Source of the DNA: Proteromonas lacertae
Lineage: Eukaryota
DNA: 64,000 bases
Assembly: GCA_002245135.1 (NCBI GenBank)
Contig: NGBS01001173.1
Location: 62,001 to 126,000, forward strand
Reading direction: 5' to 3'
Shown here: positions 10,712-64,000 of the stretch, piece by piece
How positions within the stretch are numbered: position 1 is the stretch's first letter
Layout: the number at the start of each line of letters is the position of its first letter
Position numbers and translations under genes: made by a program
Notes under the pieces: model-generated
The model's input: the letters and a program-made list of their open reading frames with translations, nothing else
What the model was told of the DNA's origin: nothing
Database searches by the model: none

Positions 10712-10912
10712 TTGAGAATTACAGAATATTTGTGATTCTCTGGTATATTTTGTAATTATAGTTGTATATAATTGTACTGATAATAATACTAATATAATAA
10801 ATTAAATAATGGATATTTATGAGAATATGTTGTTTAGAAAAATTTTAAAATGAAAAATTCATCAGTTACAAAACGAGTATATTTTTTTATAAAAGATTTT
10901 TTATTTTTGAGA

Positions 10913-16900: not shown

Positions 16901-19900
16901 AATCTATAATAACGAAAAAGATGAGAATGATGAATTATTAAAGAATGAGTTATTAGAAGGTGATGAATTATTACCTAAAGAAGAAGAAGAAGAAAGTATA
17001 AAAAGAGAATGATGTAGATCCATGTTATTTATATGATGAAGATAAAGTAATGGATTTACCAATAATCTATAATAACGAAAAAGATGAGAATGATGAATTA
17101 TTAAAGAATGAGTTATTAGAAGGTGATGAATTATTACCTAAAGAAGAAGAAGAAGAAAGTATAAAGAGAATGATGTAGATCCATGTTATTTATATGATGA
17201 AGATAAAGTAATGGATTTACCAATAATCTATAATAACGAAAAAGATGAGAATGATGAATTATTAAAGAATGAGTTATTAGAAGGTGATGAATTATTACCT
17301 AAAGAAGAAGAAGAAGAAAGTATAAAAGAGAATGATGTAGATCCATGTTATTTATATGATGAAGATAAAGTAATGGATTTACCAATAATCTATAATAACG
17401 AAAAAGATGAGAATGATGAATTATTAAAGAATGAGTTATTAGAAGGTGATGAATTATTACCTAAAGAGAAGAAGAAGAAGAAAGTATAAAAGAGAATGAT
17501 GTAGATCCATGTTATTTATATGATGAAGATAAAGTAATGGATTTACCAATAATCTATAATAACGAAAAGATGAGAATGATGAATTATTAAGAATGAGTTA
17601 TTAGAAGGTGATGAATTATTACCTAAAGAAGAAGAAGAAGAAAGTATAAAAGAGAATGATATAGATCCATGTTATTTATATGATGAAGATAAAGTAATGG
17701 ATTTACCAATAATCTATAATAACGAAAAAGATGAGAATGATGAATTATTAAAGAATGAGTTATTAGAAGGTGATGGAATTATTACCTAAAGAAGAAGAAG
17801 AAGAAGAGAAGTATAAAAGAGAATGATGTAGATCCATGTTATTTATATGATGAAGATAAAGTAATGGATTTACCAATAATCTATAATAACGAAAAAGATG
17901 AGAATGATGAATTATTAAAGAATGAGTTATTAGAAGGTGATGAATTATTACCTAAAGAAGAAGAAGAAGAAGAAAGTATAAAGAGAATGATGTAGATCCA
18001 TGTTATTTATATGATGAAGATAAAGTAATGGATTTACCAATAATCTATAATAACGAAAAAGATGAGAATGATGAATTATTAAAGAATGAGTTATTAGAAG
18101 GTGATGAATTATTACCTAAAGAAGAAGAAGAAGAAAGTATAAAGAGAATGATGTAGATCCATGTTATTTATATGATGAAGATAAAGTAATGGATTTACCA
18201 ATAATCTATAATAACGAAAAAGATGAGAATGATGAATTATTAAAGAATGAGTTATTAGAAGGTGATGAATTATTACCTAAAGAAGAAGAAGAAGAAGAAG
18301 AAAGTATAAAAGAGAATGATGTAGATCCATGTTATTTATATGATGAAGATAAGTAATGGATTTACCAATAATCTATAATAACGAAAAAGATGAGAATGAT
18401 GAATTATTAAAGAATGAGTTATTAGAAGGTGATGAATTATTACCTAAAGAAGAAGAAGAAGAAAGTATAAAAGAGAATGATGTAGATCCATGTTATTTAT
18501 ATGATGAAGATAAAGTAATGGATTTACCAATAATCTATAATAACGAAAAAGATGAGAATGATGAATTATTAAAGAATGAGTTATTAGAAGGTGATGAATT
18601 ATTACCTAAAGAAGAAGAAGAAGAAAGTATAAAAGAGAATGATGTAGATCCATGTTATTTATATGATGAAGATAAAGTAATGGATTTACCAATAATCTAT
18701 AATAACGAAAAAGATGAGAATGATGAATTATTAAAGAATGAGTTATTAGAAGGTGATGAATTATTACCTAAAGAAGAAGAAGAAGAAAGTATAAAAGAGA
18801 ATGATGTAGATCCATGTTATTTATATGATGAAGATAAAGTAATGGATTTACCAATAATCTATAATAACGAAAAAGATGAGAATGATGAATTATTAAAGAA
18901 TGAGTTATTAGAAGGTGATGAATTATTACCTAAAGAAGAAGAAGAAGAAGAAAGTATAAAAGAGAATGATGTAGATCCATGTTATTTATATGATGAAGAT
19001 AAAGTAATGGATTTACCAATAATCTATAATAACGAAAAAGATGAGAATGATGAATTATTAAAGAATGAGTTATTAGAAGGTGATGAATTATTACCTAAAG
19101 AAGAAGAAGAAGAAAGTATAAAAGAGAATGATGTAGATCCATGTTATTTATATGATGAAGATAAAGTAATGGATTTACCAATAATCTATAATAACGAAAA
19201 AGATGAGAATGATGAATTATTAAAGAATGAGTTATTAGAAGGTGATGAATTATTACCTAAAGAAGAAGAAGAAGAAAGTATAAAAGAGAATGATGTAGAT
19301 CCATGTTATTTATATGATGAAGATAAAGTAATGGATTTACCAATAATCTATAATAACGAAAAAGATGAGAATGATGAATTATTAAAGAATGAGTTATTAG
19401 AAGGTGATGAATTATTACCTAAAGAAGAAGAAGAAGAAAGTATAAAAGAGAATGATGTAGATCCATGTTATTTATATGATGAAGATAAAGTAATGGATTT
19501 ACCAATAATCTATAATAACGAAAAAGATGAGAATGATGAATTATTAAAGAATGAGTTATTAGAAGGTGATGAATTATTACCTAAAGAAGAAGAAGAAGAA
19601 AGTATAAAAGAGAATGATGTTAGATCCATGTTATTTATATGATGAAGATAAAGTAATGGATTTACCAATAATCTATAATAACGAAAAAGATGAGAATGAT
19701 GAATTATTAAAGAATGAGTTATTAGAAGGTGATGAATTATTACCTAAAGAAGAAGAAGAAGAAAGTATAAAGAGAATGATGTAGATCCATGTTATTTATA
19801 TGATGAAGATAAGTAATGGATTTACCAATAATCTATAATAACGAAAAAGATGAGAATGATGAATTATTAAAGAATGAGTTATTAGAAGGTGATGAATTAT

Positions 19901-22900
19901 TACCTAAAGAAGAAGAAGAAGAAAGTATAAAAGAGAATGATGTAGATCCATGTTATTTATATGATGAAGATAAAGTAATGGATTTACCAATAATCTATAA
20001 TAACGAAAAAGATGAGAATGATGAATTATTAAAGAATGAGTTATTAGAAGGTGATGAATTATTACCTAAAGAAGAAGAAGAAGAAGAAGAAAGTATAAAA
20101 GAGAATGATGTAGATCCATGTTATTTATATGATGAAGATAAAGTAATGGATTTACCAATAATCTATAATAACGAAAAAGATGAGAATGATGAATTATTAA
20201 AGAATGAGTTATTAGAAGGTGATGAATTATTACCTAAAGAAGAAGAAAGAAGAAGAAAGTATAAAAGAGAATGATGTAGATCCATGTTATTTATATGATG
20301 AGATAAAGTAATGGATTTACCATAATCTATAATAACGAAAAAGATGAGAATGATGAATTATTAAAGAATGAGTTATTAGGAAGGTGATGAATTATTACCT
20401 AAAGAAGAAGAAGAAGAAAGTATAAAAGAGAATGATGTAGATCCATGTTATTTTATATGATGAAGATAAGTAATGGATTTACCAATAATCTATAATACGA
20501 AAAAGATGAGAATGATGAATTATTAAAGAATGAGTTATTAGAAGGTGATGAATTATTACCTAAAGAAAAGAAGAAGAAGAAGAAGTATAAAAGAGAATGA
20601 TGTAGATCCATGTTATTTATATGATGAAGATAAAGTAATGGATTTACCATAATCTATAATAACGAAAAAGATGAGAATGATGAATTATTAAAGAATGAGT
20701 TATTAGAAGGTGATGAATTATTACCTAAAGAAGAGAAGAAGAGAAGTATAAAAGAGAATGATGTAGATCCATGTTATTTATATGATGAAGATAAAGTAAT
20801 GGATTTACCAATAATCTATAATAACGAAAAAGATGAGAATGATGAATTATTAAGAATGAGTTATTAGAAGGTGATGAATTATTACCTAAAGAAGAAGAAG
20901 AAGAAGAAAGTATAAAAGAGAATGATGTAGATCCATGTTATTTATATGATGAAGATAAAGTAATGGATTTACCAATAATCTATAATAACGAAAAAGATGA
21001 GAATGATGAATTATTAAAGAATTGAGTTATTAGAAGGTGATGAATTATTACCTAAAGAAGAAGAAGAAGAAAGTATAAAAGAGAATGATGTAGATCCATG
21101 TTATTTATATGATGAAGATAAAGTAATGGATTACCATAATCTATAATAACGAAAAAGATGAGAATGATGAATTATTAAAGAATGAGTTATTAGAAGGTGA
21201 TGAATTATTACCTAAAGAAGAAGAAGAAGAAGTATAAAAGAGAATGATGTAGATCCATGTTATTTATATGATGAAGATAAAGTAATGGATTTACCAATAA
21301 TCTATAATAACGAAAAGATGAGAATGATGAATTATTAAAGAATGAGTTATTAGAAGGTGATGAATTATTACCTAAAGAAGAAGAAGAAGAAAGTATAAAA
21401 GAGAATGATGTAGATCCATGTTATTTATATGATGAAGATAAAGTAATGGATTTACCAATAATCTATAATACGAAAAAGATGAGAATGATGATTATTAAAG
21501 AATGAGTTATTAGAAGGTGATGAATTATTACCTAAAGAAGAAGAAGAAGAAGAAAGTATAAAAGAGAATGATGTAGATCCATGTTATTTATATGATGAAG
21601 ATAAAGTAATGGATTTACCAATAATCTATAATAACGAAAAAGATGAGAATGATGAATTATTAAAGAATGAGTTATTAGAAAGGTGATGAATTATTACCTA
21701 AAGAAGAAGAAGAAGAAAGTATAAAAGAGAATGATGTAGATCCATGTTATTTATATGATGAAGATAAAGTAATGGATTTACCAATAATCTATAATAACGA
21801 AAAAGATGAGAATGATGAATTATTAAAGAATGAGTTATTAGAAGGTGATGATTATTACCTAAAGAAGAAGAGAAGAAGAAGAAAGTATAAAAGAGAATGA
21901 TGTAGATCCATGTTATTTATATGATGAAGATAAAGTAATGGATTTACCAATAATCTATAATAACGAAAAAGATGAGAATGATGAATTATTAAAGAATGAG
22001 TTATTAGAAGGTGATGAATTATTACCTAAAGAAGAAGAAGAAGAAGAAAGTATAAAAGAGAATGATGTAGATCCATGTTATTTATATGATGAAGATAAAG
22101 TAATGGATTTACCATAATCTATAATAACGAAAAAGATGAGAATGATGAATTATTAAAGAATGAGTTATTAGAAGGTGATGAATTATTACCTAAAGAAGAA
22201 GAAGAAGAAAGTATAAAAGAGAATGATGTAGATCCATGTTATTTATATGATGAAGATAAAGTAATGGATTTACCAATAATCTATAATAACGAAAAAGATG
22301 AGAATGATGAATTATTAAAGAATGAGTTATTAGAAGGTGATGAATTATTACCTAAAGAAGAAGAAGAAGAAAGTTATAAAAGAGAATGATGTAGATCCAT
22401 GTTATTTATATGATGAAGATAAAGTAATGGATTTACCAATATCTATAATAACGAAAAAGATGAGAATGATGAATTATTAAAGAATGAGTTATTAGAAGGT
22501 GATGATTATTACCTAAAGAAGAAAGAAGAAGAGAAGTATAAAAGAGAATGATGTAGATCCATGTTATTTATATGATGAAGATAAGTAATGGATTTACCAA
22601 TAATCTATAATAACGAAAAAGATGAGAATGATGAATTATTAAAGAATGAGTTATTAGAAGGTGATGAATTATTACCTAAAGAAGAAGAAGAAGAAGAAGA
22701 AGTATAAAAGAGAATGATGTAGATCCATGTTATTTATATGATGAAGATAAAGTAATGGATTTACCAATAATCTATAATAACGAAAAAGATGAGAATGATG
22801 AATTATTAAAGAATGAGTTATTAGAAGGTGATGAATTATTACCTAAAGAAGAAGAAGAAGAAGAGAAAGTATAAAAGAGATGATGTAGATCCATGTTATT

Positions 22901-25900
22901 TATATGATGAAGATAAAGTAATGGATTTACCATAATCTATAATAACGAAAAAGATGAGAATGATGAATTATTAAAGAATGAGTTATTAGAAGGTGATGAA
23001 TTATTACTAAAGAAGAAGAAGAAGAAAGTATAAAAGAGAATGATGTAGATCCATGTTATTATATGATGAAGATAAAGTAATGGATTTACCAATAATCTAT
23101 AATAACGAAAAAGATGAGAATGATGAATTATTAAAGAATGAGTTATTAGAAGGTGATGAATTATTACCTAAAGAAGAAGAAGAAGAAGAGAAGTATAAAA
23201 GAGAATGATGTAGATCCATGTTATTTATATGATGAAGATAAAGTAATGGATTTACCAATAATCTATAATAACGAAAAAGATGAGAATGATGAATTATTAA
23301 AGAATGAGTTATTAGAAGGTGATGAATTATTACCTAAAGAAGAAGAAGAAGAAAGTATAAAAGAGAATGATGTAGATCCATGTTATTTATATGATGAAGA
23401 TAAAGTAATGGATTTACCAATAATCTATAATAACGAAAGATGAGAATGATGAATTATTAAGAATGAGTTATTAGAAATGAATTATTACCTAAAGAAGAAG
23501 AAGAAGAAAGTATAAAAGAGAATGTAGATCCATGTTATTTATATGATGAATAAAGTAATGGATTTACCAATAATCTATAATAACGAAAAAGATGAGAATG
23601 ATGAATTATTAAAGAATGAGTTATTAGAAGGTGATGAATTATTACCTAAAGAAGAAGAAGAAGAAAGTATAAAAGAGAATGATGTAGATCCATGTTATTT
23701 ATATGATGAAGATAAAGTAATGGATTTACCAATAATCTATAATAACGAAAAAGATGAGAATGATGAATTATTAAAGAATGAGTTATTAGAAGGTGATGAA
23801 TTATTACCTAAAGAAGAAGAAGAAGAAGGTATAAAGAGAATGATGTAGATCCATGTTATTTATATGATGAAGATAAAGTAATGGATTTACCAATAATCTA
23901 TAATAACGAAAAAAGATGAGAATGATGAATTATTAAAGAATGAGTTATTAGAAGGTGATGAATTATTTACCTAAGAAGAAGAAGAAGAGAAAGTATAAAA
24001 GAGAATGATGTAGATCCATTATTTATATGATGAAGATAAAGTAATGGATTTACCAATAATCTATAATAACGAAAAAGATGAGAATGATGAATTATTAAAG
24101 AATGAGTTATTAGAAGGTGATGAATTATTACCTAAAGAAGAAGAAGAAGAAAGTATAAAAGAGAATGATGTAGATCCATGTTATTTATATGATGAAGATA
24201 AAGTAATGGATTTACAATAATCTATAATAACGAAAAAGATGAGAATGATGAATTATTAAAGAATGAGTTATTAGAAGGTGATGAATTATTACCTAAAGAA
24301 GAAGAAGAAAGAAAGTATAAAAGAAATGATGTAGATCCATGTTATTTATATGATGAAGATAAAGTAATGGATTTACCAATAATCTATAATAACGAAAAGA
24401 TGAGAATGATGAATTATTAAAGAATGAGTATTAGAAGGTGATGAATTATTACCTAAGAAGAGAAGAAGAAGAAAGTATAAAAGAGAATGATGTAGATCCA
24501 TGTTATTTATATGATGAAGATAAAGTAATGGATTTACCAATAATCTATAATAACGAAAAAGATGGAATGATGAATTATTAAAGAATGAGTTATTAGAAGG
24601 TGATGAATTACCTAAAGAAGAAGAAGAAGAAAGTATAAAAGAGAATGATGTAGATCCATGTTATTTATATGATGAAGATAAAGTAATGGATTTACCAATA
24701 ATCTATAATAACGAAAAAGATGAGAATGATGAATTATTAAAGAATGAGTTATTAGAAGGTGATGAATTATTACCTAAAGAAGAAGAAGAAGAAAGTATAA
24801 AAGAGAATGATGTAGATCCATGTTATTTATATGATGAAGATAAAGTAATGGATTTACCAATAATCTATAATAACGAAAAAGATGAGAATGATGAATTATT
24901 AAAGAATGAGTTATTAGAAGGTGATGAATATTACCTAAAGAAGAAGAAGAAGAAAGTATAAAAGAGAATGATGTAGATCCATTTATTTATATGATGAAGA
25001 TAAAGTAATGGATTTACCAATAATCTATAATAACGAAAAAGATGAGAATGATGAATTATTAAAGAATGAGTTATTAGAAGGTGATGAATTATTACCTAAA
25101 GAGAAGAAGAAGAAAGTATAAAAGAGAATGATGTAGATCCATGTTATTTATATGATGAAGATAAAGTAATGGATTTACCAATAATCTATAATAACGAAAA
25201 AGATGAGAATGCATGAATTATTAAAGAATGAGTTATTAGAAGGTGATGAATTATTACCTAAAGAAGAAGAAGAAGAAGAAGTATAAAAGAGAATGATGTA
25301 GATCCATGTTATTTATATGATGAAGATAAAGTAATGGATTTACCAATAATCTATAATAACGAAAAAGATGAGAATGATGAATTATTAAAGAATGAGTTAT
25401 TAGAAGGTGATGAATTATTACCTAAAAGAAGAAGAAGAAGAAGAAAGTATAAAGAGAATGATGTAGATCCATGTTATTTATATGATGAAGATAAAGTAAT
25501 GGATTTACCAATAATCTATAATAACGAAAAAGATGAGAATGATGAATTATTAAAGAATGAGTTATTAGAAGTGATGAATTATTACCTAAAGAAAGAAGAG
25601 AAGAAGAAAGTATAAAAGAGAATGATGTAGATCCATGTTATTTATATGATGAAGATAAAGTAATGATTTACCAATAATCTATAATAACGAAAAAGATGAG
25701 AATGATGGAATTATTAAAGAATGAGTTATTAGAAGGTGATGAATTATTACCTAAAGAAGAAGAAGAAAGAAAGTATAAAAGAGAATGATGTAGATCCATG
25801 TTATTTATATGATGAAGATAAAGTAATGGATTTACAATAATCTATAATAACGAAAAAGATGAGAATGATGAATTATTAAAGAATGAGTTATTAGAAGGTG

Positions 25901-28900
25901 ATGAATTATTACCTAAAGAAGAAGAAGAAGAAGAAGAAAGTATAAAAGAGAATGATGTAGATCCATGTTATTTATATGATGAAGATAAAGTAATGGATTT
26001 ACCAATAATCTATAATAACGAAAAAGATGAGAATGATGAATTATTAAAGAATGAGTTATTAGAAGGTGATGAATTATTACCTAAAGAAGAAGAAGAAGAA
26101 GAAAGTATAAAAGAGAATGATGTAGATCCATGTTATTTATATGATGAAGATAAAGTAATGGATTTACCAATAATCTATAATAACGAAAAAGATGAGAATG
26201 ATGAATTATTAAAGAATGAGTTATTAGAAGGTGATGAATTATTACCTAAAGAAGAAGAAGAAGAAGAAGAAAGTATAAAAGAGAATGATGTAGATCCATG
26301 TTATTTATATGATGAAGATAAAGTAATGGATTTACCAATAATCTATAATAACGAAAAAGATGAGAATGATGAATTATTAAAGAATGAGTTATTAGAAGGT
26401 GATGAATTATTACCTAAAGAAGAAGAAGAAGAAAGTATAAAAGAGAATGATGTAGATCCATGTTATTTATATGATGAAGATAAAGTAATGGATTTACCAA
26501 TAATCTATAATAACGAAAAAGATGAGAATGATGAATTATTAAAGAATGAGTTATTAGAAGGTGATGAATTATTACCTAAAGAAGAAGAAGAAGAAGAAGA
26601 AAGTATAAAAGAGAATGATGTAGATCCATGTTATTTATATGATGAAGATAAAGTAATGGATTTACCAATAATCTATAATAACGAAAAAGATGAGAATGAT
26701 GAATTATTAAAGAATGAGTTATTAGAAGGTGATGAATTATTACCTAAAGAAGAAGAAGAAGAAGAAAGTATAAAGAGAATGATGTAGATCCATGTTATTT
26801 ATATGATGAAGATAAAGTAATGGATTTACCAATAATCTATAATAACGAAAAAGATGAGAATGATGAATTATTAAAGAATGAGTTATTAGAAGGTGATGAA
26901 TTATTACCTAAAGAAGAAGAAGAAGAAAGTATAAAAGAGAATGATGTAGATCCATGTTATTTATATGATGAAGATAAAGTAATGGATTTACCAATAATCT
27001 ATAATAACGAAAAAGATGAGAATGATGAATTATTAAAGAATGAGTTATTAGAAGGTGATGAATTATTACCTAAAGAAGAAGAAGAAGAAGAAAGTATAAA
27101 AGAGAATGATGTAGATCCATGTTATTTATATGATGAAGATAAAGTAATGGATTTACCAATAATCTATAATAACGAAAAAGATGAGAATGATGAATTATTA
27201 AAGAATGAGTTATTAGAAGGTGATGAATTATTACCTAAAGAAGAAGAAGAAGAAGAAAGTATAAAAGAGAATGATGTAGATCCATGTTATTTATATGATG
27301 AAGATAAAGTAATGGATTTACCAATAATCTATAATAACGAAAAAGATGAGAATGATGAATTATTAAAGAATGAGTTATTAGAAGGTGATGAATTATTACC
27401 TAAAGAAGAAGAAGAAGAAAGTATAAAAGAGAATGATGTAGATCCATGTTATTTATATGATGAAGATAAAGTAATGGATTTACCAATAATCTATAATAAC
27501 GAAAAAGATGAGAATGATGAATTATTAAAGAATGAGTTATTAGAAGGTGATGAATTATTACCTAAAGAAGAAGAAGAAGAAAGTATAAAAGAGAATGATG
27601 TAGATCCATGTTATTTATATGATGAAGATAAAGTAATGGATTTACCAATAATCTATAATAACGAAAAAGATGAGAATGATGAATTATTAAAGAATGAGTT
27701 ATTAGAAGGTGATGAATTATTACCTAAAGAAGAAGAAGAAGAAGAAAGTATAAAAGAGAATGATGTAGATCCATGTTATTTATATGATGAAGATAAAGTA
27801 ATGGATTTACCAATAATCTATAATAACGAAAAAGATGAGAATGATGAATTATTAAAGAATGAGTTATTAGAAGGTGATGAATTATTACCTAAAGAAGAAG
27901 AAGAAAGAAAGTATAAAAGAGAATGATGTAGATCCATGTTATTTATATGATGAAGATAAAGTAATGGATTTACCAATAATCTATAATAACGAAAAAGATG
28001 AGAATGATGAATTATTAAAGAATGAGTTATTAGAAGGTGATGAATTATTACCTAAAGAAGAAGAAGAAGAAGAAAGTATAAAGAGAATGATGTAGATCCA
28101 TGTTATTTATATGATGAAGATAAAGTAATGGATTTACCAATAATCTATAATAACGAAAAAGATGAGAATGATGAATTATTAAAGAATGAGTTATTAGAAG
28201 GTGATGAATTATTACCTAAAGAAGAAGAAGAAGAAGAAGAAAGTATAAAAGAGAATGATGTAGATCCATGTTATTTATATGATGAAGATAAAGTAATGGA
28301 TTTACCAATAATCTATAATAACGAAAAAGATGAGAATGATGAATTATTAAAGAATGAGTTATTAGAAGGTGATGAATTATTACCTAAAGAGAAGAAGAAG
28401 AAGAAGAAAGTATAAAAGAGAATGATGTAGATCCATGTTATTTATATGATGAAGATAAAGTAATGGATTTACCAATAATCTATAATAACGAAAAAGATGA
28501 GAATGATGAATTATTAAAGAATGAGTTATTAGAAGGTGATGAATTATTACCTAAAGAAGAAGAAGAAGAAAGGTATAAAAGAGAATGATGTAGATCCATG
28601 TTATTTATATGATGAAGATAAAGTAATGGATTTACCAATAATCTATAATAACGAAAAAGATGAGAATGATGAATTATTAAAGAATGAGTTATTAGAAGGT
28701 GATGAATTATTACCTAAAGAAGAAGAAGAAGAAAGTATAAAAGAGAATGATGTAGATCCATGTTATTTATATGATGAAGATAAAGTAATGGATTTACCAA
28801 TAATCTATAATAACGAAAAAGATGAGAATGATGAATTATTAAAGAATGAGTTATTAGAAGGTGATGAATTATTACCTAAAGAAGAAGAAGAAGAAGAAAG

Positions 28901-31900
28901 TATAAAAGAGAATGATGTAGATCCATGTTATTTATATGATGAAGATAAAGTAATGGATTTACCAATAATCTATAATAACGAAAAAGATGAGAATGATGAA
29001 TTATTAAAGAATGAGTTATTAGAAGGTGATGAATTATTACCTAAAGAAGAAGAAGAAGAAGAAAAGTATAAAGAGAATGATGTAGATCCATGTTATTTAT
29101 ATGATGAAGATAAAGTAATGGATTTACCAATAATCTATAATAACGAAAAAGATGAGAATGATGAATTATTAAAGAATGAGTTATTAGAAGGTGATGAATT
29201 ATTACCTAAAGAAGAAGAAGAAGAAGAAGAAAGTATAAAAGAGAATGATGTAGATCCATGTTATTTATATGATGAAGATAAAGTAATGGATTTACCAATA
29301 ATCTATAATAACGAAAAAGATGAGAATGATGAATTATTAAAGAATGAGTTATTAGAAGGTGATGAATTATTACCTAAAGAAGAAGAAGAAGAAAGTATAA
29401 AAGAGAATGATGTAGATCCATGTTATTTATATGATGAAGATAAAGTAATGGATTTACCAATAATCTATAATAACGAAAAAGATGAGAATGATGAATTATT
29501 AAAGAATGAGTTATTAGAAGGTGATGAATTATTACCTAAAGAAGAAGAAGAAGAAAGTATAAAAGAGAATGATGTAGATCCATGTTATTTATATGATGAA
29601 GATAAAGTAATGGATTTACCAATAATCTATAATAACGAAAAAGATGAGAATGATGAATTATTAAAGAATGAGTTATTAGAAGGTGATGAATTATTACCTA
29701 AAGAAGAAGAAGAAGAAGAAAGTATAAAAGAGAATGATGTAGATCCATGTTATTTATATGATGAAGATAAAGTAATGGATTTACCAATAATCTATAATAA
29801 CGAAAAAGATGAGAATGATGAATTATTAAAGAATGAGTTATTAGAAGGTGATGAATTATTACCTAAAGAAGAAGAAGAAAAGAAGAAAGTATAAAAGAGA
29901 ATGATGTAGATCCATGTTATTTATATGATGAAGATAAAGTAATGGATTTACCAATAATCTATAATAACGAAAAAGATGAGAATGATGAATTATTAAAGAA
30001 TGAGTTATTAGAAGGTGATGAATTATTACCTAAAGAAGAAGAAAGAAGAAAGTATAAAAGAGAATGATGTAGATCCATGTTATTTATATGATGAAGATAA
30101 AGTAATGGATTTACCAATAATCTATAATAACGAAAAAGATGAGAATGATGAATTATTAAAGAATGAGTTATTAGAAGGTGATGAATTATTACCTAAAGAA
30201 GAAGAAGAAGAAGAAGAAAGTATAAAAGAGAATGATGTAGATCCATGTTATTTATATGATGAAGATAAAGTAATGGATTTACCAATAATCTATAATAACG
30301 AAAAAGATGAGAATGATGAATTATTAAAGAATGAGTTATTAGAAGGTGATGAATTATTACCTAAAGAAGAAGAAGAAGAAGAAAGTATAAAAGAGAATGA
30401 TGTAGATCCATGTTATTTATATGATGAAGATAAAGTAATGGATTTACCAATAATCTATAATAACGAAAAAGATGAGAATGATGAATTATTAAAGAATGAG
30501 TTATTAGAAGGTGATGAATTATTACCTAAAGAAGAAGAAGAAGAAGAAGAAAGTATAAAAGAGAATGATGTAGATCCATGTTATTTATATGATGAAGATA
30601 AAGTAATGGATTTACCAATAATCTATAATAACGAAAAAGATGAGAATGATGAATTATTAAAGAATGAGTTATTAGAAGGTGATGAATTATTACCTAAAGA
30701 AGAAGAAGAAGAAAGTATAAAAGAGAATGATGTAGATCCATGTTATTTATATGATGAAGATAAAGTAATGGATTTACCAATAATCTATAATAACGAAAAA
30801 GATGAGAATGATGAATTATTAAAGAATGAGTTATTAGAAGGTGATGAATTATTACCTAAAGAAGAAGAAGAAGAAGAAGAAAGTATAAAAGAGAATGATG
30901 TAGATCCATGTTATTTATATGATGAAGATAAAGTAATGGATTTACCAATAATCTATAATAACGAAAAAGATGAGAATGATGAATTATTAAAGAATGAGTT
31001 ATTAGAAGGTGATGAATTATTACCTAAAGAAGAAGAAGAAGAAAGTATAAAAGAGAATGATGTAGATCCATGTTATTTATATGATGAAGATAAAGTAATG
31101 GATTTACCAATAATCTATAATAACGAAAAAGATGAGAATGATGAATTATTAAAGAATGAGTTATTAGAAGGTGATGAATTATTACCTAAAGAAGAAGAAG
31201 AAGAAAGTATAAAAGAGAATGATGTAGATCCATGTTATTTATATGATGAAGATAAAGTAATGGATTTACCAATAATCTATAATAACGAAAAAGATGAGAA
31301 TGATGAATTATTAAAGAATGAGTTATTAGAAGGTGATGAATTATTACCTAAAGAAGAAGAAGAAGAAAGTATAAAAGAGAATGATATAGATCCATGTTAT
31401 TTATATGATGAAGATAAAGTAATGGATTTACCAATAATCTATAATAACGAAAAAGATGAGAATGATGAATTATTAAAGAATGAGTTATTAGAAGGTGATG
31501 AATTATTACCTAAAGAAGAAGAAGAAGAAAGTATAAAAGAGAATGATGTAGATCCATGTTATTTATATGATGAAGATAAAGTAATGGATTTACCAATAAT
31601 CTATAATAACGAAAAAGATGAGAATGATGAATTATTAAAGAATGAGTTATTAGAAGGTGATGAATTATTACCTAAAGAAGAAGAAGAAGAAGAAGAAAGT
31701 ATAAAAGAGAATGATGTAGATCCATGTTATTTATATGATGAAGATAAAGTAATGGATTTACCAATAATCTATAATAACGAAAAAGATGAGAATGATGAAT
31801 TATTAAAGAATGAGTTATTAGAAGGTGATGAATTATTACCTAAAGAAGAAGAAGAAGAAAGTATAAAAGAGAATGATGTAGATCCATGTTATTTATATGA

Positions 31901-32742
31901 TGAAGATAAAGTAATGGATTTACCAATAATCTATAATAACGAAAAAGATGAGAATGATGAATTATTAAAGAATGAGTTATTAGAAGGTGATGAATTATTA
32001 CCTAAAGAAGAAGAAGAAGAAAGAAAGTATAAAAGAGAATGATGTAGATCCATGTTATTTATATGATGAAGATAAAGTAATGGATTTACCAATAATCTAT
32101 AATAACGAAAAAGATGAGAATGATGAATTATTAAAGAATGAGTTATTAGAAGGTGATGAATTATTACCTAAAGAAGAAGAAGAAGAAAGTATAAAAGAGA
32201 ATGATGTAGATCCATGTTATTTATATGATGAAGATAAAGTAATGGATTTACCAATAATCTATAATAACGAAAAAGATGAGAATGATGAATTATTAAAGAA
32301 TGAGTTATTAGAAGGTGATGAATTATTACCTAAAGAAGAAGAAGAAGAAAGTATAAAAGAGAATGATGTAGATCCATGTTATTTATATGATGAAGATAAA
32401 GTAATGGATTTACCAATAATCTATAATAACGAAAAAGATGAGAATGATGAATTATTAAAGAATGAGTTATTAGAAGGTGATGAATTATTACCTAAAGAAG
32501 AAGAAGAAGAAAGTATAAAAGAGAATGATATAGATCCATGTTATTTATATGATGAAGATAAAGTAATGGATTTACCAATAATCTATAGTAATGATAAATG
32601 CTTGATGAATACGAAACATAAAGTATTTTCGTTTGATAAATCTAAAGTTAGAAAAGGAATATTAATATTTGTTGATAAGAAGGATAAGAGAATTATTTTG
32701 TTTGACGAATCTAAAATAATTAAAACTAAAACTATAGATTGA
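10913..32742 (+). CDS. Giant acidic tandem-repeat protein (~7,200 aa if the array indels are errors)
   Basis: Exons 10913-10963 and 10992-11137, then 11166 onward (28-nt introns). A unique N-terminus reads in frame into the array, and the array reads into a unique C-terminus ending TGA at 32742. Many small indels interrupt the frame between ~13.9 and 32.0 kb. Confidence 0.65.
11440..32587 (+). repeat. Near-identical coding tandem array, unit 162-168 bp (54-56 aa), roughly 129 copies
   Basis: Unit DPCYLYDEDKVMDLPIIYNNEKDENDELLKNELLEGDELLPK-E(5-7)-SIKENDV. Recurring variation is limited to GAA copy number and a GTA/ATA (V/I) variant. Copy number is estimated as length divided by unit size. Confidence 0.97.
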
Positions 32743-38600: not shown

Positions 38601-41600
38601 CAGAATTATCATTATTAATAGATGGAGTATTTGGTGTTGTTGGTGATTCATTATTATTATCAATTCTTCTTGATACTGGATTAGGTGTTTTGATTAATAA
38701 TGATCTATTCATTGACATTGGGGATTCAGTATTGGAAGTAATATTCTGTATAATTGCACCTGAAAGTCTTTTATTTGTTGCACCTCTTGATAATACACTT
38801 GTACGTTTATTCGGTTTTGTTTTTGGTGTATTATTTTCTGTAGTTGGTGTATTATTATTTGTTCCATCTGATGGGAATTTCAAACCTCCAACTGGGTTAC
38901 TATTAGCATCAGGTGTTAATATAGATCCTTTTTGTAACGACTCTTTATTTTTATTCTTTTTTACCAACATACTTTTCTTCTTAGTAAATGCTGGTTCATT
39001 ATTATCTTTATCTTTATTTTTTCCTTTATTCTTACCTTTTGCTATTGCATCTATTTGTTTCTTAACAGAATCATTCTCATTTTGTTGTTGTTTATCATCT
39101 TCAATAGGTAAAACTTTACTAGTTCTAGCTGTAGCATGAAAGAATATATTATTACTATGTTCAATTCTACTATGCAAAGTATTCAAATCGACTGAATTAT
39201 CTCTTAATAATAACGCTAATATTTTATCATGTCCGTTTGCACATGCATGATGTAAGGCTGTGTAGCCGTTATTATCTTTCTCCAATACTTGTGCCCCAGA
39301 TCTTAACAATAAATCAACAATTTGATAATTACCTAAAAATACAGCTAACATTAAAGGAGTCATTCCTGTATTATCTTTAAGTTCAATATTCGCTTTGAAT
39401 TTAATTAATAATTCACAAACAGCTAAATGTCCTCTTTTTACAGCTAAATATAAAGGGAAATGACCATATTGTTTGTCTTTATAGTTTATATTTGCAACTA
39501 TATCATCATCTGATTGGATTAGTAGTGGAATAATATCGATTTGATCATTTCTACAAGCTCTATGTAAATACAAATTGAACAATTGTTTTTTCAATTTTTC
39601 TGTTTCTTTCATATTATGTTTTAAAGAGTGATAATCATCGTAAACATTAGCTGTAGAAATCAAAGCAGGATCTTCTCTTACTTGAACAAATGAATAACCT
39701 AACAACAAAATATCCCGAATTATCTCCAAATTATCCATTTGAAATGAACATTTTTCTTCATCTGATAAATACTCATATGGAACTAATAAATTCGATGTTT
39801 TACCTGTTGCATTACTATTCACATCTGGACTATATTTACATCCATTATCCATCATGTTCTTACTCCATATTTCATGTGTATTCTTTGATAATCCTTGAAT
39901 TAACATCAATAAATTAGGATCAATTTCTATATCATCTGTACATAATACAGCTGGATAATAATCTTCAGGAGTAGCTGTTTCATCCCAATCAGCTTTTGTT
40001 GCTTCAACAATACCTTCTTGTTCACATACTAATTCATATCCGAAATATTTAATCATTTTTATAGTATTTGTTACATCTTTTACATAATTCTTTCTTTCAT
40101 TCACTGTCATTGCATTCCAAGGAATTAACATCGGATCAATCATAGCATTTTCATCTCTTTGCATTCCTAATTGCCATCCTTCATCTATCTTCTCTCTCGC
40201 CCATAACTCATGTTCATTGATTGCTAAACATTCGATTAAATCCTTCAAATTATCATCATCTTCGATTAAGTTACTTGGATCTATAGGATGTGGTTGGTAT
40301 TTATAACCTTCAGTTTCTCGTTTATCTACACCCAATAAGGAGATACAGGTGTTTTTAGTACAGTTACAATATGTATCAGCGATTAAACCTTTATATTCAG
40401 TATCATGACCTTTATGGCATTTTTGATTGCAAATTAGACAGATGAATACATCGCAGGTTTTACATCGATACATATGTTGAGTGATTGGATTAGTGAAGTT
40501 GGCAAAAGCAAATGTACATGATTTACGATCTATATTATAATAATAATAAATGCAAAAAAGAAATAGATTTATACATTTTAATCTTCGAGTAAATTTCAAC
40601 AATAATTCATCTATTTCTATACTATTTTCATCAAATCTCAACAATCCTTCTACTACATCACTTTTTCCTGTTATTATCATATAATTCAATAATTTATAAA
40701 CTGCTTGACCTGTGCATCTAATTACTATGACTTCCTGCCATTATTAATGATTTACAACAAGCGATATCATCTTTTAATATCTAATAATAATATATATATT
40801 ACAATATATACAGCATAATCTAATTCACAATAACCTGTTTCTTCATTAATATCATTCAATTCGATAAAATTTGGCCATTCATTCATCACTATATCAATAA
40901 CTTCACTTTGGTTATTCCAAGCAGCAATATCGATCTAAATTACAATAATATTAAGAAATAAATATTTATATATACAATATTATAACCTTGTTTTAATCGA
41001 CGATTGATTAAATTCTTTTCTTTAAACATTTCACGATAATCTTCAGTCAATACACTATCAAATAAACCATATTTACAATTATAAAACAAACAATCCCAAC
41101 CACGATCATCTATATTTATCATTAATTGAAAGATTTTGGCTTTCTTCTTTAGTTTTTCATTGATTATGTTGAACATCTTTTCAGTTACATTTTTATCACT
41201 ATGAATGGATAAAGATATACAATTTGCATGATATCTAGATTTGGCTTGAGATTTGACTTTACTGTTACTTAATAATAGTGAAACTATTTCATAATTTGCC
41301 ATTTCACAAGCGATCATTATTGGAGTATAACCATCAGTATATGAAGGTAAATTCAAATCTGCACAACCTGAAGTTATTATCTTTTCAGCAATCTATTCAA
41401 CAAATTAATATATATATATATATACTTCAGTTCTATTTAATCTACAAGCTAAATGTAATGGAGTATCACCCATTATATTCTGAATATTCATTCCAATTTC
41501 ATAATTAAATAACAAATCAACTAAATTACTTCTTCCAGATTTAACTGCACAATGATATAGATTCTCATCCAAAGGAGCACATTTTCCATTTATCTTTACA

Positions 41601-44224: not shown

Positions 44225-44256
<32 letters not shown>

Positions 44257-54860: not shown

Positions 54861-54906
54861 GTTGGTTGATAAGATTTAAGAGATTGAAATTTAAATTCAA
54901 ATTTCA

Positions 54907-54918
54907 AAATCAAGCCAA
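54907..54918. promoter_or_regulatory. Candidate promoter element AAATCAAGCCAA in the WDR90/FOP bidirectional promoter
   Basis: The same or near-identical motif occurs at 7317-7326, 10386-10395, 42936-42947 (reverse strand) and 45014-45021, with TCAAGC at ~56815. All are just upstream of start codons. Confidence 0.5.
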
Positions 54919-54965
54919 AAGTTTGAATTGATATTTAAATTTCTGTTTGTTTTTTCTATTATTTC

Positions 54966-55832: not shown

Positions 55833-55908
55833 AAAAAAGAAAAGCAATTAACAGAATTGAATTTTTTTATTGCTTTATTATTTTAATTACATAAATTATT
55901 ATTATTAA

Positions 55909-56784: not shown

Positions 56785-56844
56785 TTTTTATAAACTCATA
56801 TATCAAATCAGAGTTCAAGCTTTTATATTATTTCTTCTAATATA

Positions 56845-57813: not shown

Positions 57814-58454
57814 TTTAATAATCTTGTGTAATTTTTTCTATTTTTTATAAATTTGTTTGTTATTACTGAATATTATTGTTACTGAATATAAATAATATGT
57901 TCATTTTATAAGTATATAGTTAAATTTAAATCTCGATTGATTTAATTATGGCATTATTTAAAGCATATATCATTTAATTTATTCATACAATAAAATATTA
58001 CAGTATACTTACAAAAATAAAATAACCAAATATGTTACAAAAATTTTCGAACCCCTAAATATAAATTATGTTGTTTTCTTTCTATACAAACATTTATGTA
58101 AGCTAAAAAGAAGATATATTCTTCTTCGCCTGCTATATAATATGTTATATAGGTTTAATGGTGGAAATAAGTAATCATTAAATCAAATTATACATCTTTT
58201 ACTAAATTGTAGATATAATAGGATTTCCTGTGAAAGTATAGCTAAACTAATATTCTTGATCTTTTAAATAGATTACTAACAATGAGAGTTTAAAAGAAAA
58301 CATTAGGCTAAATAATGCTAATATATAAAAATGTTTGCTCAATAAAGCAAATAAATGTTTCAAAACATAAATAAAAAGTGAATAATGTGAAACGTTAATG
58401 AGAGAGATGAATTTATAGTCGTTTTATGCCGTTTAAGAATTGTAGTTTGATTTT

Positions 58455-61400
58455 ATGAAAATTCTGCTTACTTTCATCTTCTTATTCAACCTTTGTAGTT
58501 GTTTAAAAATTAATGTTGGTTATCTATACGATGGTGCAGCTAATTATTATGATTTGTTTCAAAAATTAGGTTGATAGCTACCAGTCAGAATTGAATATAG
58601 CAATAACTCCAACAGATAAAGATGCAAGCTGATCATGACAAATATGAAGCTGCTGTACAACAATTAAAAACTAGTAAGATAACTATTGCGTTTGGGACAT
58701 TTGAAATGGATGATCCTGCTTGGTATGATGATATTGCTAGATCGGCTGGAGTTTATATATTCAACAGTTTGTTAAATTACAATGTTACCGTCTGCCTTAC
58801 TAATATTATAATTAATCGTTCTCCATGCGATTCAGATAATTCAGGTATTCATTTGGTATATATTATATAGGCTCTGAACACTTTTCTCAAGAATTTAAAG
58901 TCCATACTGTATTTGTTTCTGAAAACTCACCTGTACAACCTTGTTTAGAAGATGCTGGTCAATGCGTAAAGTCAAAAGGATTTGATTTGAATGAGATTAA
59001 GTATGATGCTACTACTGTTGAAGATGAGTTTATAAAAGTGAAAACTAATTATCCAGAAGGATCTACTATATATGTATATGTAGAAAAAGCTCAAGAAACT
59101 GCATTAGTTACAGCATATCAAACTGCAGGACTAACATCTGACAAATATCCTCTTGTTTTCTTTCATGATGCTACTTACTCAGATATTATAAGTAATGCAT
59201 TCAATAAAGGTCATTATTTAATGACTGAATTACACGATTTATCAATGGATGCAAATATTGAAGCATTAATGGAAGTGAATGGTGATAAGAATCACAGAAA
59301 TTATGATGCTTTATACTTGTATGATAATTTAGTTTTTATTTCTTAAAAATAGATTAGGAATGATTCATATATACTTCAACAAAGCCAAATCATTAGATTC
59401 TACTGATACTGCAAGTATTATCTATGGATTATATTATACAAACTACAAAATCAACAACACTGAATTTGAATTGTTTCCTAACAATCGTGTTATGACAAAT
59501 TCATTATTAATTAAATTCAATGGAGCTAATACTGAACCAGATGTTACTGTTTTACCAATGCCAGATAGAATACAATACAGTACATCTCCTGGTCGTCCAG
59601 CTATTAATATATGTAATCATTTAGATGATAATCCAATAGCTTCTGCTATTTATGTCATTTTTATGGTTTATACTTCTGGTGAATATAAAGAAGTTGAAAG
59701 GGGTATTTTAGATGCAATGTCTGTTGCTGTAAAATATATTAATGGAAATAGTATGTTGCTAAACAAAGAAATTGTTCCTATTTATATTGATGCTAATCAA
59801 GAAGTTGATGTTATTATAAAAGCTACCAATCAAATAGAAGAAAAACTAAAAGTTGTTGCTCTATTCACCACTTTGGTATTGGATGATTTTAATACAATTA
59901 TAGAAAGTATATATTTATTATTTATTGCTATATTCATATAGAAAAACAATTTACATATCCAGTTTATTCATTGTTAAACACACCTGGTGAAAAGTGTACT
60001 AATACTTATTTATCAATATCTTTTTTATTTTCTATTTACAATATATTATTATGATTCTTTAACTTTATATAAACTGGTCTACCAATATCATTATCCTTTG
60101 AAATTGTCAATGAAAACTTCTTAAGAAATCAAAATCCAAATGTATTTGTCTTATACAGTGATAAATACTTTGGAAGTGTTGCTTATGAAGCTTTAAGCAC
60201 TTTAATCGTAAATGAAAACATTAATAAAATTGGTGAATATATGTTTGAAGAAAACACAGCTGCTCAAAGTGTAAATGCTTGTTCATCAATATATGAAAGT
60301 TGTACTGATAGTATATATTTTATCTATATTTATTTTATATATATAGATTGTTATATTATTGATATTGCTGAAAGAGAATATGATACATTATTCTTTTCCA
60401 ATTGTTTTATGAGTAATACATCAATCATGAAATCTGAAAGATTTACAGTATTTTCATTTACTGTGGATGAAAATGAGTTAAATATTTTGAAGGATTTACC
60501 AGAAGTAAGTGGTAATATATCCAATTTAGACGGTCATTATGTAGTTTCATATTACTTTGATTCTATGGATAGTGAAATTGGCAAATCAATAAAAGCATCT
60601 TTAAAAGAAAATTTCTATTATAAAGAGTTTACTTCAATTATGGCAACTGCATATAATACTATTTTCTTATGGGAAGAAGCTGTAAAAATTGCTCATTCTT
60701 TTGATTATGAACTAGTTAAAAAGTATTGATATTATTTTATTAGTATTAATATTTTTTATTGTAGATCAATTACTCAAACACATTATGAAGGTGCTGGAGG
60801 AAAATTTTCAATTAATAAGAAAGGTGTAATTAGTGCACAAATCCACATTGGAATTGTATTAATATTATATATATTTATTTATTTATATTTCTATTTAGAT
60901 AAACAATGGAACAATACAATTAGTTTCTTATAGTTATTACTTAACTAATGGATTTGTTTTTACAAACAGAGATCAAACATGTGATTATCAATCTGGAATT
61001 GCATCAGCACAACCAACAAAATATGTTGGATTCTTTGTGAATAGTGATGGTTATATTGGACAATTAATGAATGCTTATACTAAAGCAATACCTATTGTTG
61101 TTGATTTCTTAAACGATCAAGGAGGTTCAAATGGAATTATTATTCAATTGTTATATTTAGATATAGAAAAATTCAACAATGAAGAATATATGAATGAAAT
61201 GGATAAAAAAGTATTAATCTATCTTGGAACTAATTCAAACGATTTTAGAAGTAGAGTTCAACAATTTGTATATAAGAAAAAGAAGATGTTATTTAGTTTA
61301 ATGCCAGTAACAGGTGAACAATGTTTATCAAATGTTATTAATGTTGGTAGACTTCCTCATCATTATCATCCTCATATGTTGGTTTATCATTTCATTCGAT

Positions 61401-64000
61401 CTGTTAATTGTGCTTTTGTTGCTGCTTGGGATGAGTATATTTATTTGTGTTATAATATTTGTTATAGAAATGATTATGGAACTTCAATAGCGCAATTAAT
61501 TTATCAAGCTGCTAAAACATACAAGGGAATTAATTGTAGTTATTTTATGTTTAATGGTACTGAAGGAATATCTGATTTAGTTGGTAATTTAACTGCAAAT
61601 GTTTCTCAAGATGCAACAATTTTTACTTTTGCTGGAATATTTACTGAAAATTTATTAGGTGAATTATATAGTTTAGATAGTAATTATACTATTGTTTTAG
61701 CTGATCAATTTGAATCTTTAATAGTAGAAAGTAAACATCAAGAATACTATAAAGGAGTTTATATTGCAAGTAGTTATTTATCAGAAGATAATAGTAATGA
61801 GAATTATGTATTAAAAGATTTGATAACTAACCAATATGGTATTGTTACACACTGTATGAATGAAATCACTACAAAAATGTATATTACTAATGTATTTAAT
61901 TATCTAATAATAGTCAAGCTTCTATATTATTCTTCAATGACGCTGTTGCTAAAACTGGTTCAACTGATCCATTTACCATTAGAAAACAATTTTATAAACT
62001 TACAGAATCAACTGCTCAAGGTGATACAACTATCGATAATAATAATATTATGTCAACTAAGTTCATAATGGGTAGAGTAAATGATGATTATGGAATTGAC
62101 ATTGTTGCTAAGTCACCATATCCATTACTAGTTAATCCATTCTCTGAATATGTATATTTTTATTTGATTATATATAGCTGACTAATTTTCAAGAGTATAA
62201 AACTTGCAAATTTGAGGAGATGGTTGAATCAGATTCTGATGTTTATAATGAAGATGCTTATGTAGTTGATGATGATGTTCTAAGAGTTGAAATTATTATA
62301 AACGAAGGACAAGAAGATTTAACACTGTTTCTAGTTTTATCCACAATTTTAATGAAACAGAATAATAATGGAGGATTTTTAGATAGAAAGATAGTTGCAG
62401 AAAGATTATATTGTCCTAAAACAAACTCAACAGAAGACATAGAAACATTAGAAATAGAAATAGAGAATAGAACATCATCATTTCTTATTAGTAACTGCAA
62501 AGAAGAATTGATACAACCTGTCTTTGAATATTTCGTAGGTAAGAATATCTTGTTCTTTGATATAACTGATAGTGATGCTACAAATTGTGTTAATAATATG
62601 TATGTTTATATATATATATTTAATATATAGTCTTGTATTTGGTTCAACACCTCCTCAACGTACAATTCCTAATTTGTTCTATTTAAGAAAGACAAGAGAT
62701 GATTTTTACTTCCTCATATTAGCACCTGAATCATATAAAACATCCAATGAAATACAATTAGTTACTTCAATGATAAATGAATTAACTGGAACTTATAGAA
62801 CTTTTTATGTTTCAACAACTGATGAGATTATATCAACAATGCAAAATTCAAGAGTGTATTTTTCATCAGGTTTTATTGTATTGAATTATCTTACAGGTGA
62901 TTTATTCCGTGATGTTTATCAATGTTTGAATGAAACTTACAGTGATTTAGATAAAGAGTATTTTGAACAGCATTATATAGTTGTTACACCGAATGGTGAT
63001 GAATTTAGAAAATTACCACCAGCATTATCACATCATAATCTTTTAATTACATCTTATTTTGTTGATCATATTGAAGGAAATATTATGTCTTCAGGATTAC
63101 ATAACTTACTTGGAAATGATCATTTTATTACAGAAAATGAATTGAAGGTATATGTTGCTGCAGATTATTTCTTAAATGCTTTACTTTCATGCTTATCTGA
63201 GAATGTGACAATATTAAGAGATAAAATAATAGAAACTCATTATACAACACCAATTGGAGATGTCAATATTCGTGAATCATTATATCCTGATTTACCTGTC
63301 ATTTTATTAACTTCAAATAATGGAAAAGTAGAATTGGAAGCTGTATTGTCTAAACAATGGCATTCTGAATTATTCAGAAGAAATGCATTTAATCCAACAT
63401 CATATTCAACTTGTAGTTATACATCCTCTCATTTTATTGAATATGAATATACAAAGATTATATTAGCTTTACCAATAAGTGGTGAATTGAAAGAATATGG
63501 TGCAGATACAGTAATTGGATTATATGCAGGAGTTGATAAAGTCAATTATGATGCTAGTTATGATGCAAGAACATTATTATCTCATGTTGTTGATATTGGC
63601 TCAGATACAGAAACATTAGTTGAGAAGTTAACAAATGCTACAGAGAAATATAATTCATCTGTTATATTTGGATTATATGGAAGTGATCAAAGAAAAGCAA
63701 TAATGCCATTACTACATGATGAAGATGATGAATTGATGTTATTCTATTTATTTGATAATGAAGGTGAAGAATGTGATTCTAATATAGTTTATATGGGACC
63801 TTCTGTTTATAGTAATACAATATTAATACCATGGATTCAATCCAATCTTGGCAATTCATTAATTATATTGTATCATACAACCACTGAACAACAAGCTATG
63901 TATAGATATTATAAAAGACATTTAGAATTAAGAGGAATGACATTAGTTGATGCTGTTCCAATTAATTTAGGAGTTACTGATATGTCTTATATTGTGAGTA
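58455..64000 (+). CDS. Secreted/membrane protein with at least 5 tandem UrtA/AmiC-like periplasmic-binding (Venus flytrap) domains; runs off the window
   Basis: Signal peptide MKILLTFIFLFNLCSC. Repeated type-I PBP motifs, e.g. LALPISGELKEYG...VVDIGSDTETLVEKL...VIFGLYGSDQRKAIMP...EGEECDSNIVYMG. About 10 introns; two +1 shifts are needed near the 5' end. Confidence 0.75.
60016..60072 (+). other. Probable U12-type (minor) intron with AT-AA termini
   Basis: A 57-nt AT-rich insert with two in-frame stops and no AG acceptor. It starts ATATCTTT and has a branch-like TTCTTTAAC at 60055-60063. Removing it restores GEKC-x7-G spacing. Confidence 0.65.

What the first reader, a model, noticed from the sequence alone, without database searches (positions are those of the whole stretch)
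58560..58640. Two stop-skip sites 58 nt apart in the binding-protein gene, constrained by the fold
At site 1 (TTA GGT TGA) the +1 frame has TAG immediately upstream, so the shift is confined to a few bases next to the stop. The stretch between the stops (DSYQSELNIAITPTDKDAS) supplies the expected helix end and beta-2 strand. Skipping the T at site 2 gives ...DAS-DHDKYEAAVQQL, resembling the UrtA/AmiC DGASD-helix motif and domain 5 of this protein (DIGSDTETLVEKL). That T is not in a homopolymer. An alternative 59-nt GT-AG intron (58570-58628) restores the frame but is atypical and deletes beta-2.
Basis: partly seen in the sequence, partly recalled or inferred. Interest (0 to 1): 0.7.

Follow-up and report, generated by a model that had tools for sequence, protein, structure and literature searches.

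The report
Extra bases breaking a protist receptor
A large protist receptor gene is broken twice, 58 bases apart, by one extra base each time; these are most likely leftover long-read assembly errors, although a third such break right beside a stop codon in a nearby gene leaves a small chance of a ciliate-style code in which ribosomes skip internal stops.

Summary
The two +1 breaks are in the sequence. Site 1 is confined to 58568-58574; site 2 may lie anywhere in 58604-58632. The stretch between them is coding-like and the 59-nt intron is rejected. The 'stop-skip' reading is not shown: every single extra base can be written as a skipped T at the next stop, TGA is the commonest such stop here (46-57%), and profile support for the exact residues is weak (98 of 500 shuffles match it). 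The contig carries long-read indels (50 of 127 repeat units non-triplet; 7 of 17 insertions double a single base), and each site offers such a doublet. Best reading: assembly insertions (0.6). Against it: I found a third +1 break in the neighbouring ankyrin/channel gene, pinned by a relative to four bases before a TAG; all three breaks are +1 and near stops (1-2% under random insertion), while the array's errors are mostly deletions (99 against 17). So an Euplotes-like stop-skip code keeps about 0.1, limited by non-slippery preceding codons, no RNA structure, a TGA-ended gene and unbroken relatives. No reads were available.

The parts
58455..58574 (+). First reading piece: ATG, hydrophobic leader (signal-peptide-like by eye), first strand and helix of domain 1; ends in TGA 58572-58574
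   Evidence: aligns in length with the N-terminus of relative P0013
58568..58574 (+). Site 1: the 7 bases where one extra base must lie (contains GG and TT doublets)
58573..58632 (+). Middle piece in the +1 frame, 19 codons and TGA 58630-58632; coding-like
   Evidence: codon score 6.7, reached by 0 of 4,839 non-coding windows
58604..58632 (+). Site 2: the 29 bases where the second extra base may lie; soft evidence favours 58624-58630 (AA doublet 58626-58627, C58629, T58630)
58570..58628 (+). Rejected 59-nt GT-AG intron (GTTG donor, AAG acceptor, 36% GC)
   Evidence: score -31.7 against at least -2.9 for 66 window introns
58455..64000 (+). Gene for a large protein with at least five tandem UrtA/AmiC-like periplasmic-binding (Venus flytrap) domains, 10 GT-AG introns, open at the window end; predicted class C GPCR-like receptor
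   Evidence: gene model; Pfam PF13433; PDB urea-binding proteins and AmiC; five domains by profile; relatives carry 7tm_3
60016..60072 (+). 57-nt U12-type-like intron with AT-AA ends in the same gene (ATATCTTT donor, TTCTTTAAC branch-like motif)
   Evidence: only this end restores the frame with the C-x7-G spacing of the other domains
40718..40723 (-). Site 3, found here: +1 break in the isochorismatase-like/ankyrin/RyR/ion-channel gene; extra base in 40723-40720 (AA or TT doublet), TAG at 40720-40718
   Evidence: relatives P0117 and P0237 align without gaps across it
11439..32598 (+). 162-nt coding tandem array used as an internal gauge of assembly error

Best explanation
The two breaks are most likely single-base insertions left in a long-read assembly, so the real gene would be one continuous frame encoding a signal peptide and an intact first binding domain. 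Each extra base would be a doubled base (G or T at site 1, most simply A at 58626-58627 at site 2); reading on in the wrong frame then meets the first out-of-frame stop, which in this AT-rich genome is usually T+GA, and that gives the look of a skipped T. Shown: the breaks, the coding middle piece, indel errors elsewhere in the contig. Inferred: that these particular bases are errors.
For: The contig has a long-read error signature: 50 of 127 array units have non-triplet length, clean at both ends and noisy in the middle, with 116 indels against 6 substitutions. 12 of the array's 17 insertions sit next to the same base and 7 turn a single base into a doublet, one in the same TTAG-to-TTAGG context as site 1; sites 1, 2 and 3 each offer a doublet. 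In simulated insertions TGA is the first stop in 46-57% and TGAT in 21-26%. The rest of the gene (1,656 codons, 10 GT-AG introns) has no stop or shift, so it is not a decayed pseudogene. Relative P0013 has leader and first domain in one frame; P0117 and P0237 are unbroken at site 3. 18 of 18 inspected relative ORFs (32,361 residues) end, by eye, in intron-like tails or natural ends. Two of three breaks within 60 nt has about 1% chance for independent sites and fits a local consensus fault. That long-read errors create false frameshifts is stated in the abstract start of PMC12007338 (search listing only).
Against: No reads could be laid on the site. Unique sequence is otherwise clean: no -1 break in 10,290 modelled codons holding 144 A/T runs of five or more, yet the array's errors are mostly deletions (99 against 17), so three +1 and no -1 breaks is not what that profile predicts. 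All three breaks lie close to the first stop: 3.7-5.5% for sites 1 and 3 together, 1.1-1.8% with site 2 (site 2 is only softly placed). The profile's best site-2 reading removes C58629 or T58630, neither in a doublet.
Confidence: 0.6

Rival explanations
1. The extra bases are real and the ribosome skips them: internal stops far from the poly(A) tail would trigger a +1 shift, as in Euplotes, so T insertions that create an in-frame stop are tolerated and full-length receptor and channel are made.
For: Three +1 breaks and no -1 break in the window; each can be written NNN-T-GA/AG; site 1 is within 4 bases of its stop and site 3 within 3; joint chance 1-2% under random insertion; the T-skip reading is the best or joint-best reading by homology at sites 2 and 3; both genes are otherwise intact. 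In Euplotes, sites arise by T insertion and frameshifting rescues insertions upstream of a new stop (PMC10235951, passages).
Against: Preceding codons GGT, AGC and AAT are not the AAA that dominates in Euplotes, where other contexts are strongly selected against, nor any of the seven antizyme P-site codons (PMC1874602, passages). No stimulatory fold (z from -0.35 to +1.49). One of 14 gene ends uses TGA. Two sites within 60 nt is about 1% for independent sites. Relatives show no such ends in 18 of 18 ORFs (DNA not seen; 23-49% identical, so distant).
Confidence: 0.11
2. The insertions are real, recent loss-of-function mutations (or a broken allele written into a collapsed consensus); the gene yields a 39-residue peptide, or a leaderless product from ATG 58622, and the mRNA is likely degraded.
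For: Unique sequence is otherwise accurate; the receptor belongs to a large, divergent family in which single members may be dispensable (inference); the AT-AA end of the U12-like intron could be a further lesion.
Against: No nonsense codon or other shift in the remaining 1,656 codons; a second hit within 58 nt of the first in a gene over 5.5 kb is unlikely without a clustered event; a separate conserved channel gene would need its own +1 hit beside a stop. AT-AA is the commonest non-canonical minor-intron end in animals and plants (PMC10639083, passage).
Confidence: 0.23
3. A 59-nt GT-AG intron (58570-58628), or another unusual splice, removes both stops.
For: It restores the frame; the gene has another non-canonical intron; GC-AG, GA-AG and AT-AC introns are reported in Blastocystis (PMC5608401, section 'Introns').
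Against: All 67 called introns start GTA and 64 end TAG; this one starts GTTG, ends AAG, is 36% GC against a median of 14% and longer than any (25-56 nt); score -31.7 against at least -2.9 (self-scored training set); the content is coding-like; it leaves a 20-residue gap against P0013; no U12 motif; it does not explain site 3.
Confidence: 0.04

Closest known systems
Residual indel errors of long-read assemblies (false frameshifts)
   Same: Single-base frame breaks in otherwise intact genes, doublet-forming insertions, an indel-rich repeat on the same contig.
   Different: All three breaks in unique sequence are insertions near stops, while the array's errors are 85% deletions; long A/T runs in coding sequence are intact.
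Euplotes stop-directed +1/+2 frameshifting (PMC10235951)
   Same: Internal stop with the coding frame continuing at +1; several sites without conserved signal; AT-rich genome with short introns.
   Different: Euplotes shifts at TAA/TAG, mostly after AAA, with TGA read as Cys; here two sites are TGA, none follows AAA, TGA is not a sense codon in 10,290 codons, and genes lie many to a contig.
Antizyme +1 frameshift at UGA (PMC1874602)
   Same: Short first ORF ending in UGA, main ORF at +1; site 2 would give Ser-Asp.
   Different: P-site codons are not among the seven listed; no 3' structure; two shifts in series; a surface receptor has no evident feedback logic.
Class C GPCR-like proteins with tandem UrtA/AmiC-like (PF13433) binding domains and a 7tm_3 domain
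   Same: Five PF13433-like domains in the window; relatives of 2,000-3,700 residues with 5-9 domains, 4 of 7 scanned passing the 7tm_3 cut-off and one below it.
   Different: The gene's 3' end is outside the window, so its own membrane domain is unseen; all relatives looked up are unnamed.

Membership tests
Euplotes-type stop-directed frameshifting | Shift falls at an internal stop and the protein continues at +1 | tested here: inconclusive
   Met within 4 and 3 bases at sites 1 and 3; site 2 has a 29-base window; true of any +1 insertion at some distance
Euplotes-type stop-directed frameshifting | Preceding codon allows re-pairing, mostly AAA | tested here: not met
   GGT, AGC, AAT against PMC10235951 passages
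Euplotes-type stop-directed frameshifting | Shifty stops are TAA/TAG; TGA codes Cys | tested here: not met
   Two of three sites are TGA; 0 sense TGA in 10,290 codons; one TGA gene end among 14
Euplotes-type stop-directed frameshifting | Many sites genome-wide, shared with relatives | tested here: inconclusive
   3 sites in 2 of about 15 window genes; none seen in 18 of 18 relative ORF ends; no genome held
Euplotes-type stop-directed frameshifting | Extra base present in mRNA and ribosomes pass the stop | not testable with these tools
   No reads or footprints at hand
Antizyme-type +1 frameshift | UGA in the A site | tested here: met
   Sites 1 and 2
Antizyme-type +1 frameshift | [quoted passage not shown] | tested here: not met
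   GGU and AGC; list from PMC1874602 Table 1
Antizyme-type +1 frameshift | Stimulatory 3' RNA structure (typical, not universal) | tested here: not met
   Six folds, z -0.35 to +1.49; pseudoknots not modelled
Antizyme-type +1 frameshift | Site conserved in orthologues | not testable with these tools
   No close relative covering domain 1 found
Major (U2) intron of this genome | GTA donor, TAG acceptor, AT-rich, 25-56 nt | tested here: not met
   GTTG, AAG, 36% GC, 59 nt
Residual long-read indel | Indel-dominated errors elsewhere on the contig | tested here: met
   17 insertions, 99 deletions, 6 substitutions in 125 aligned array units
Residual long-read indel | Extra base duplicates a neighbour | tested here: inconclusive
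   Possible at all three sites, but the profile's best site-2 reading is not a doublet
Residual long-read indel | Base absent from accurate reads | not testable with these tools
   No reads at hand
Class C GPCR-like receptor with tandem binding domains | PF13433-like binding domains | tested here: met
   Three window pieces pass Pfam's cut-off; five domains by profile
Class C GPCR-like receptor with tandem binding domains | C-terminal 7tm_3 domain | not testable with these tools
   Gene runs off the window; present in relatives

The most novel reading that the evidence does not exclude
This protist has, independently of Euplotes, evolved a non-triplet code in which an internal TGA or TAG makes the ribosome skip one base without a slippery codon; the window holds three such sites in two conserved genes.
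Probability: 0.11. Interest if true: 0.88.

Novelty: not a real feature. Interest (0 to 1): 0.3.

Why it matters
If the bases are errors, this is a gene-model correction: one intact multi-domain receptor and one intact channel. If they are real and skipped, it would be a second eukaryotic lineage with a non-triplet code, using TGA and no slippery codon, and would test whether position-dependent termination alone is enough for such a code to spread. Papers holding at least three of 'ribosomal frameshifting', 'internal stop codons', 'Euplotes', 'stramenopile' (4 papers), 'Proteromonas' with 'frameshift' (2 papers) and 'Blastocystis', 'frameshift', 'genome assembly' (7 papers) showed no such report in their listings; most subscription papers are not searched. 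The check is cheap: one look at accurate reads.

Tried and rejected
No whole genome is held. No sequencing run was listed for 54000-63900; this is no evidence either way. Two scans of metagenome contigs found no relative of the receptor exon or the adjacent WD40 gene. Two word-index protein searches with domains 4-5 found nothing; the full HMMER search found 67 relatives, none close over domain 1. Earlier findings: three look-ups returned nothing. A single -1 event, a single GT/GC-AG intron of normal size, and stop read-through were rejected (two stops in a row in frame 0). A first profile test included the gene's own first domain by mistake; one search repeats it without, and its numbers are used. 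A first array count (25 single-base insertions, 56 single-base deletions) mis-aligned the GAA tract; one search is used for types. A 31-nt intron first called at 40755-40725 was rejected once relatives aligned through it. Apparent breaks at 10700-10714, 54813, 35400, 32030 and 55911 came from my chosen gene limits. An ankyrin profile from the window's own repeats did not discriminate. A link to adenine methylation at ApT was only an idea; the one search found 0 papers. An Atlas search with a tubulin-ligase exon did not place the organism. No structure was predicted, so whether the middle piece forms strand 2 stays open. No supplements were read.

Full report
Setting. The window is eukaryotic, 22-30% GC, with about 15 genes and short introns: 67 called introns of 25-56 nt, all starting GTA, 64 ending TAG, median GC 14% (two forced calls of 69 were dropped, and one of the 67 later proved false). 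The intron style recalls Blastocystis and kin (30-nt introns, U12 introns; PMC5608401, section 'Introns'; PMC12129017, passages), but the window has WDR90 and a tubulin-ligase gene, and Blastocystis is reported to have lost cilia genes, so a flagellated protist is more likely. The lineage is an inference and was not tested. No genome is held.

The gene. ATG 58455 begins a hydrophobic leader (by eye). The model runs to the window end with 10 GT-AG introns and at least five UrtA/AmiC-like binding domains (Pfam PF13433; PDB urea-binding proteins and AmiC; profile). The 67 relatives found include proteins of 2,000-3,700 residues with 5-9 such domains; of 7 scanned, 4 pass the 7tm_3 cut-off and one falls below it. 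The product is therefore predicted to be a class C GPCR-like receptor with tandem ligand-binding modules; its own membrane domain lies outside the window.

The observation. Frame 0 stops at TGA 58572, frame +1 is closed by TAG 58567 and open to TGA 58630, frame +2 is open from 58607. Two single-base removals are needed: one in 58568-58574 and one in 58604-58632. The middle 19 codons score like true coding frame (6.7; mean 4.9), a value reached by 0.2% of 2,521 open wrong-frame windows and none of 4,839 non-coding windows. The 59-nt intron restores the frame but has a GTTG donor, AAG acceptor and 36% GC, and scores -31.7 where the 66 good introns score at least -2.9. So the breaks and the coding middle are confirmed.

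The fold argument is weak. With a profile of 135 related domains, the T-skip reading scores 47.0 bits, the part after site 2 alone 45.3, the intron form 45.2; 98 of 500 shuffles of the middle peptide reach 47.0. Against P0013, the one relative with leader and first domain in one ORF, read-through forms score 30-38 and the intron form 15, but 285 of 500 shuffles match the T-skip form. Length is supported, residues are not. At site 2 the two removals that give A-S-D (C58629, T58630) are best by 0.5-2 bits; codon scores prefer 58624-58629, which includes the AA doublet.

How surprising is 'two TGAT stops'? After any +1 insertion the frame runs to a first stop, and dropping its T always reopens the gene. 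In 12,128 simulated insertions into this window's coding models that stop is TGA in 46% (57% within this gene) and TGAT in 21% (25-26%); the T-skip restores the protein exactly in 8% and within one residue in 25%. A window as narrow as site 1's occurs in 2%, but the upstream TAG only locates the event; the relevant chance, a stop within 4 bases, is 22-26%.

The contig has long-read errors. In the 162-nt coding array at 11439-32598, 50 of 127 units have non-triplet length, with clean ends and a noisy middle. In 125 aligned units there are 17 insertions, 99 deletions and 6 substitutions; 12 insertions neighbour the same base and 7 make a doublet from a single base, one after TTA as at site 1. 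Some array indels may be real slippage; that was not separable.

A third break, found here, cuts the other way. A weak 31-nt intron called in the ankyrin/RyR/channel gene is false: relatives P0117 and P0237 align without gaps through it (scores 1647 against 1596, and 302 against 247). The match holds in the upstream frame through G-S-H-S and resumes at C-T-G, which pins one extra base to 40723-40720, an AA or TT doublet directly before TAG. A re-run with a trained intron model over 16 regions found no other break that was not due to my gene limits or the U12-like intron. So the window has three +1 breaks and no -1 break in 10,290 codons plus three more genes, with 144 A/T runs of five or more intact. 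Nearness to the stop has a chance of 3.7-5.5% for sites 1 and 3 and 1.1-1.8% for all three, and the sign does not match the array's deletion bias. These are post hoc figures on three events.

Against recoding. The codons before the stops are GGT, AGC and AAT; Euplotes sites are mostly AAA-T-AR, other contexts being strongly selected against (PMC10235951, passages), and antizyme uses seven other codons (PMC1874602, passages with Table 1). No fold stands out near the sites. Gene ends are 11 TAA, 2 TAG, 1 TGA of 14, so TGA appears to terminate. Two independent sites within 60 nt has about 1% chance. 18 of 18 relative ORFs inspected (32,361 residues; chosen as the long or best-matching hits) end, by eye, in intron-like tails or natural ends, and site 3 is unbroken in its relatives; their DNA was not seen and they are distant.

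Weighing (my estimate, not a computed result). Nearness and sign favour stop-skipping by several hundredfold; clustering and non-slippery codons take back most of that; the prior for a new non-triplet code is far below that for a few residual indels in a contig that visibly has them. I put assembly error at 0.6, real inactivating insertions at 0.23, stop-skip recoding at 0.11, odd splicing at 0.04.

Mechanism, if error (inferred): a doubled base survives the consensus at each site; the true mRNA is one frame; nothing is recoded. If real and recoded (inferred): slow release at an internal stop far from the poly(A) tail lets the ribosome step one base, twice in series within the first 60 codons. 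Accurate reads over 200 bases decide between them.

Side result. The same gene needs a 57-nt non-GT-AG intron at 60016-60072 with U12-like donor and branch motifs and AT-AA ends; AT-AA is the commonest non-canonical minor-intron end in animals and plants, and Blastocystis minor introns are enriched in phase 0 like this one (PMC10639083, passages). The U12 consensus motifs themselves are recalled, not from a call.

Noticed in passing
window 40718-40723 (-): Third +1 break, directly before a TAG, in a 2,330-residue isochorismatase-like/ankyrin/RyR/ion-channel gene; masked by a chance GTA...TAG pseudo-intron; relatives are unbroken.
   Followed up: yes
window 60016-60072 (+): U12-type-like intron with AT-AA ends in phase 0; an AT-AC end two bases further would break the frame, so either a rare terminus or a further sequence fault.
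   Followed up: partly
window 11110-32742 (+): Gene with about 129 copies of a 54-56-residue acidic repeat (162-168 nt), 21 kb long; indels inside are likely assembly errors; ends in the window's only TGA terminator.
   Followed up: partly
window 10431-10708 (+): Short gene resembling the N-terminal part of the adjacent repeat gene (similar 'Y-R-D-x-Y...YAK' stretch by eye), likely a tandem paralogue.
   Followed up: no
window 45105-48515 (+): Kinase-like domain followed by about 17 TPR-like units, each one exon of about 111 nt with a 28-36-nt intron at the same place; a paralogous kinase-like domain with leucine-rich-like repeats lies just upstream (43028-44832). Repeat names are recalled.
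   Followed up: no
P0002-P0016, P0029, P0032, P0060 (protein hits): Unnamed family of very large class C GPCR-like proteins with 5-9 tandem UrtA-like binding domains, apparently from related AT-rich intron-bearing protists; P0002 and P0029 look like successive exons of the closest relative (42% identity over domains 3-5).
   Followed up: partly
window 48769-54860 (-), 54966-55832 (+), 32859-35402 (-): WDR90, a FOP-like protein (name recalled) and a tubulin-ligase gene point to centrioles or flagella, which argues against Blastocystis proper despite the intron style.
   Followed up: no
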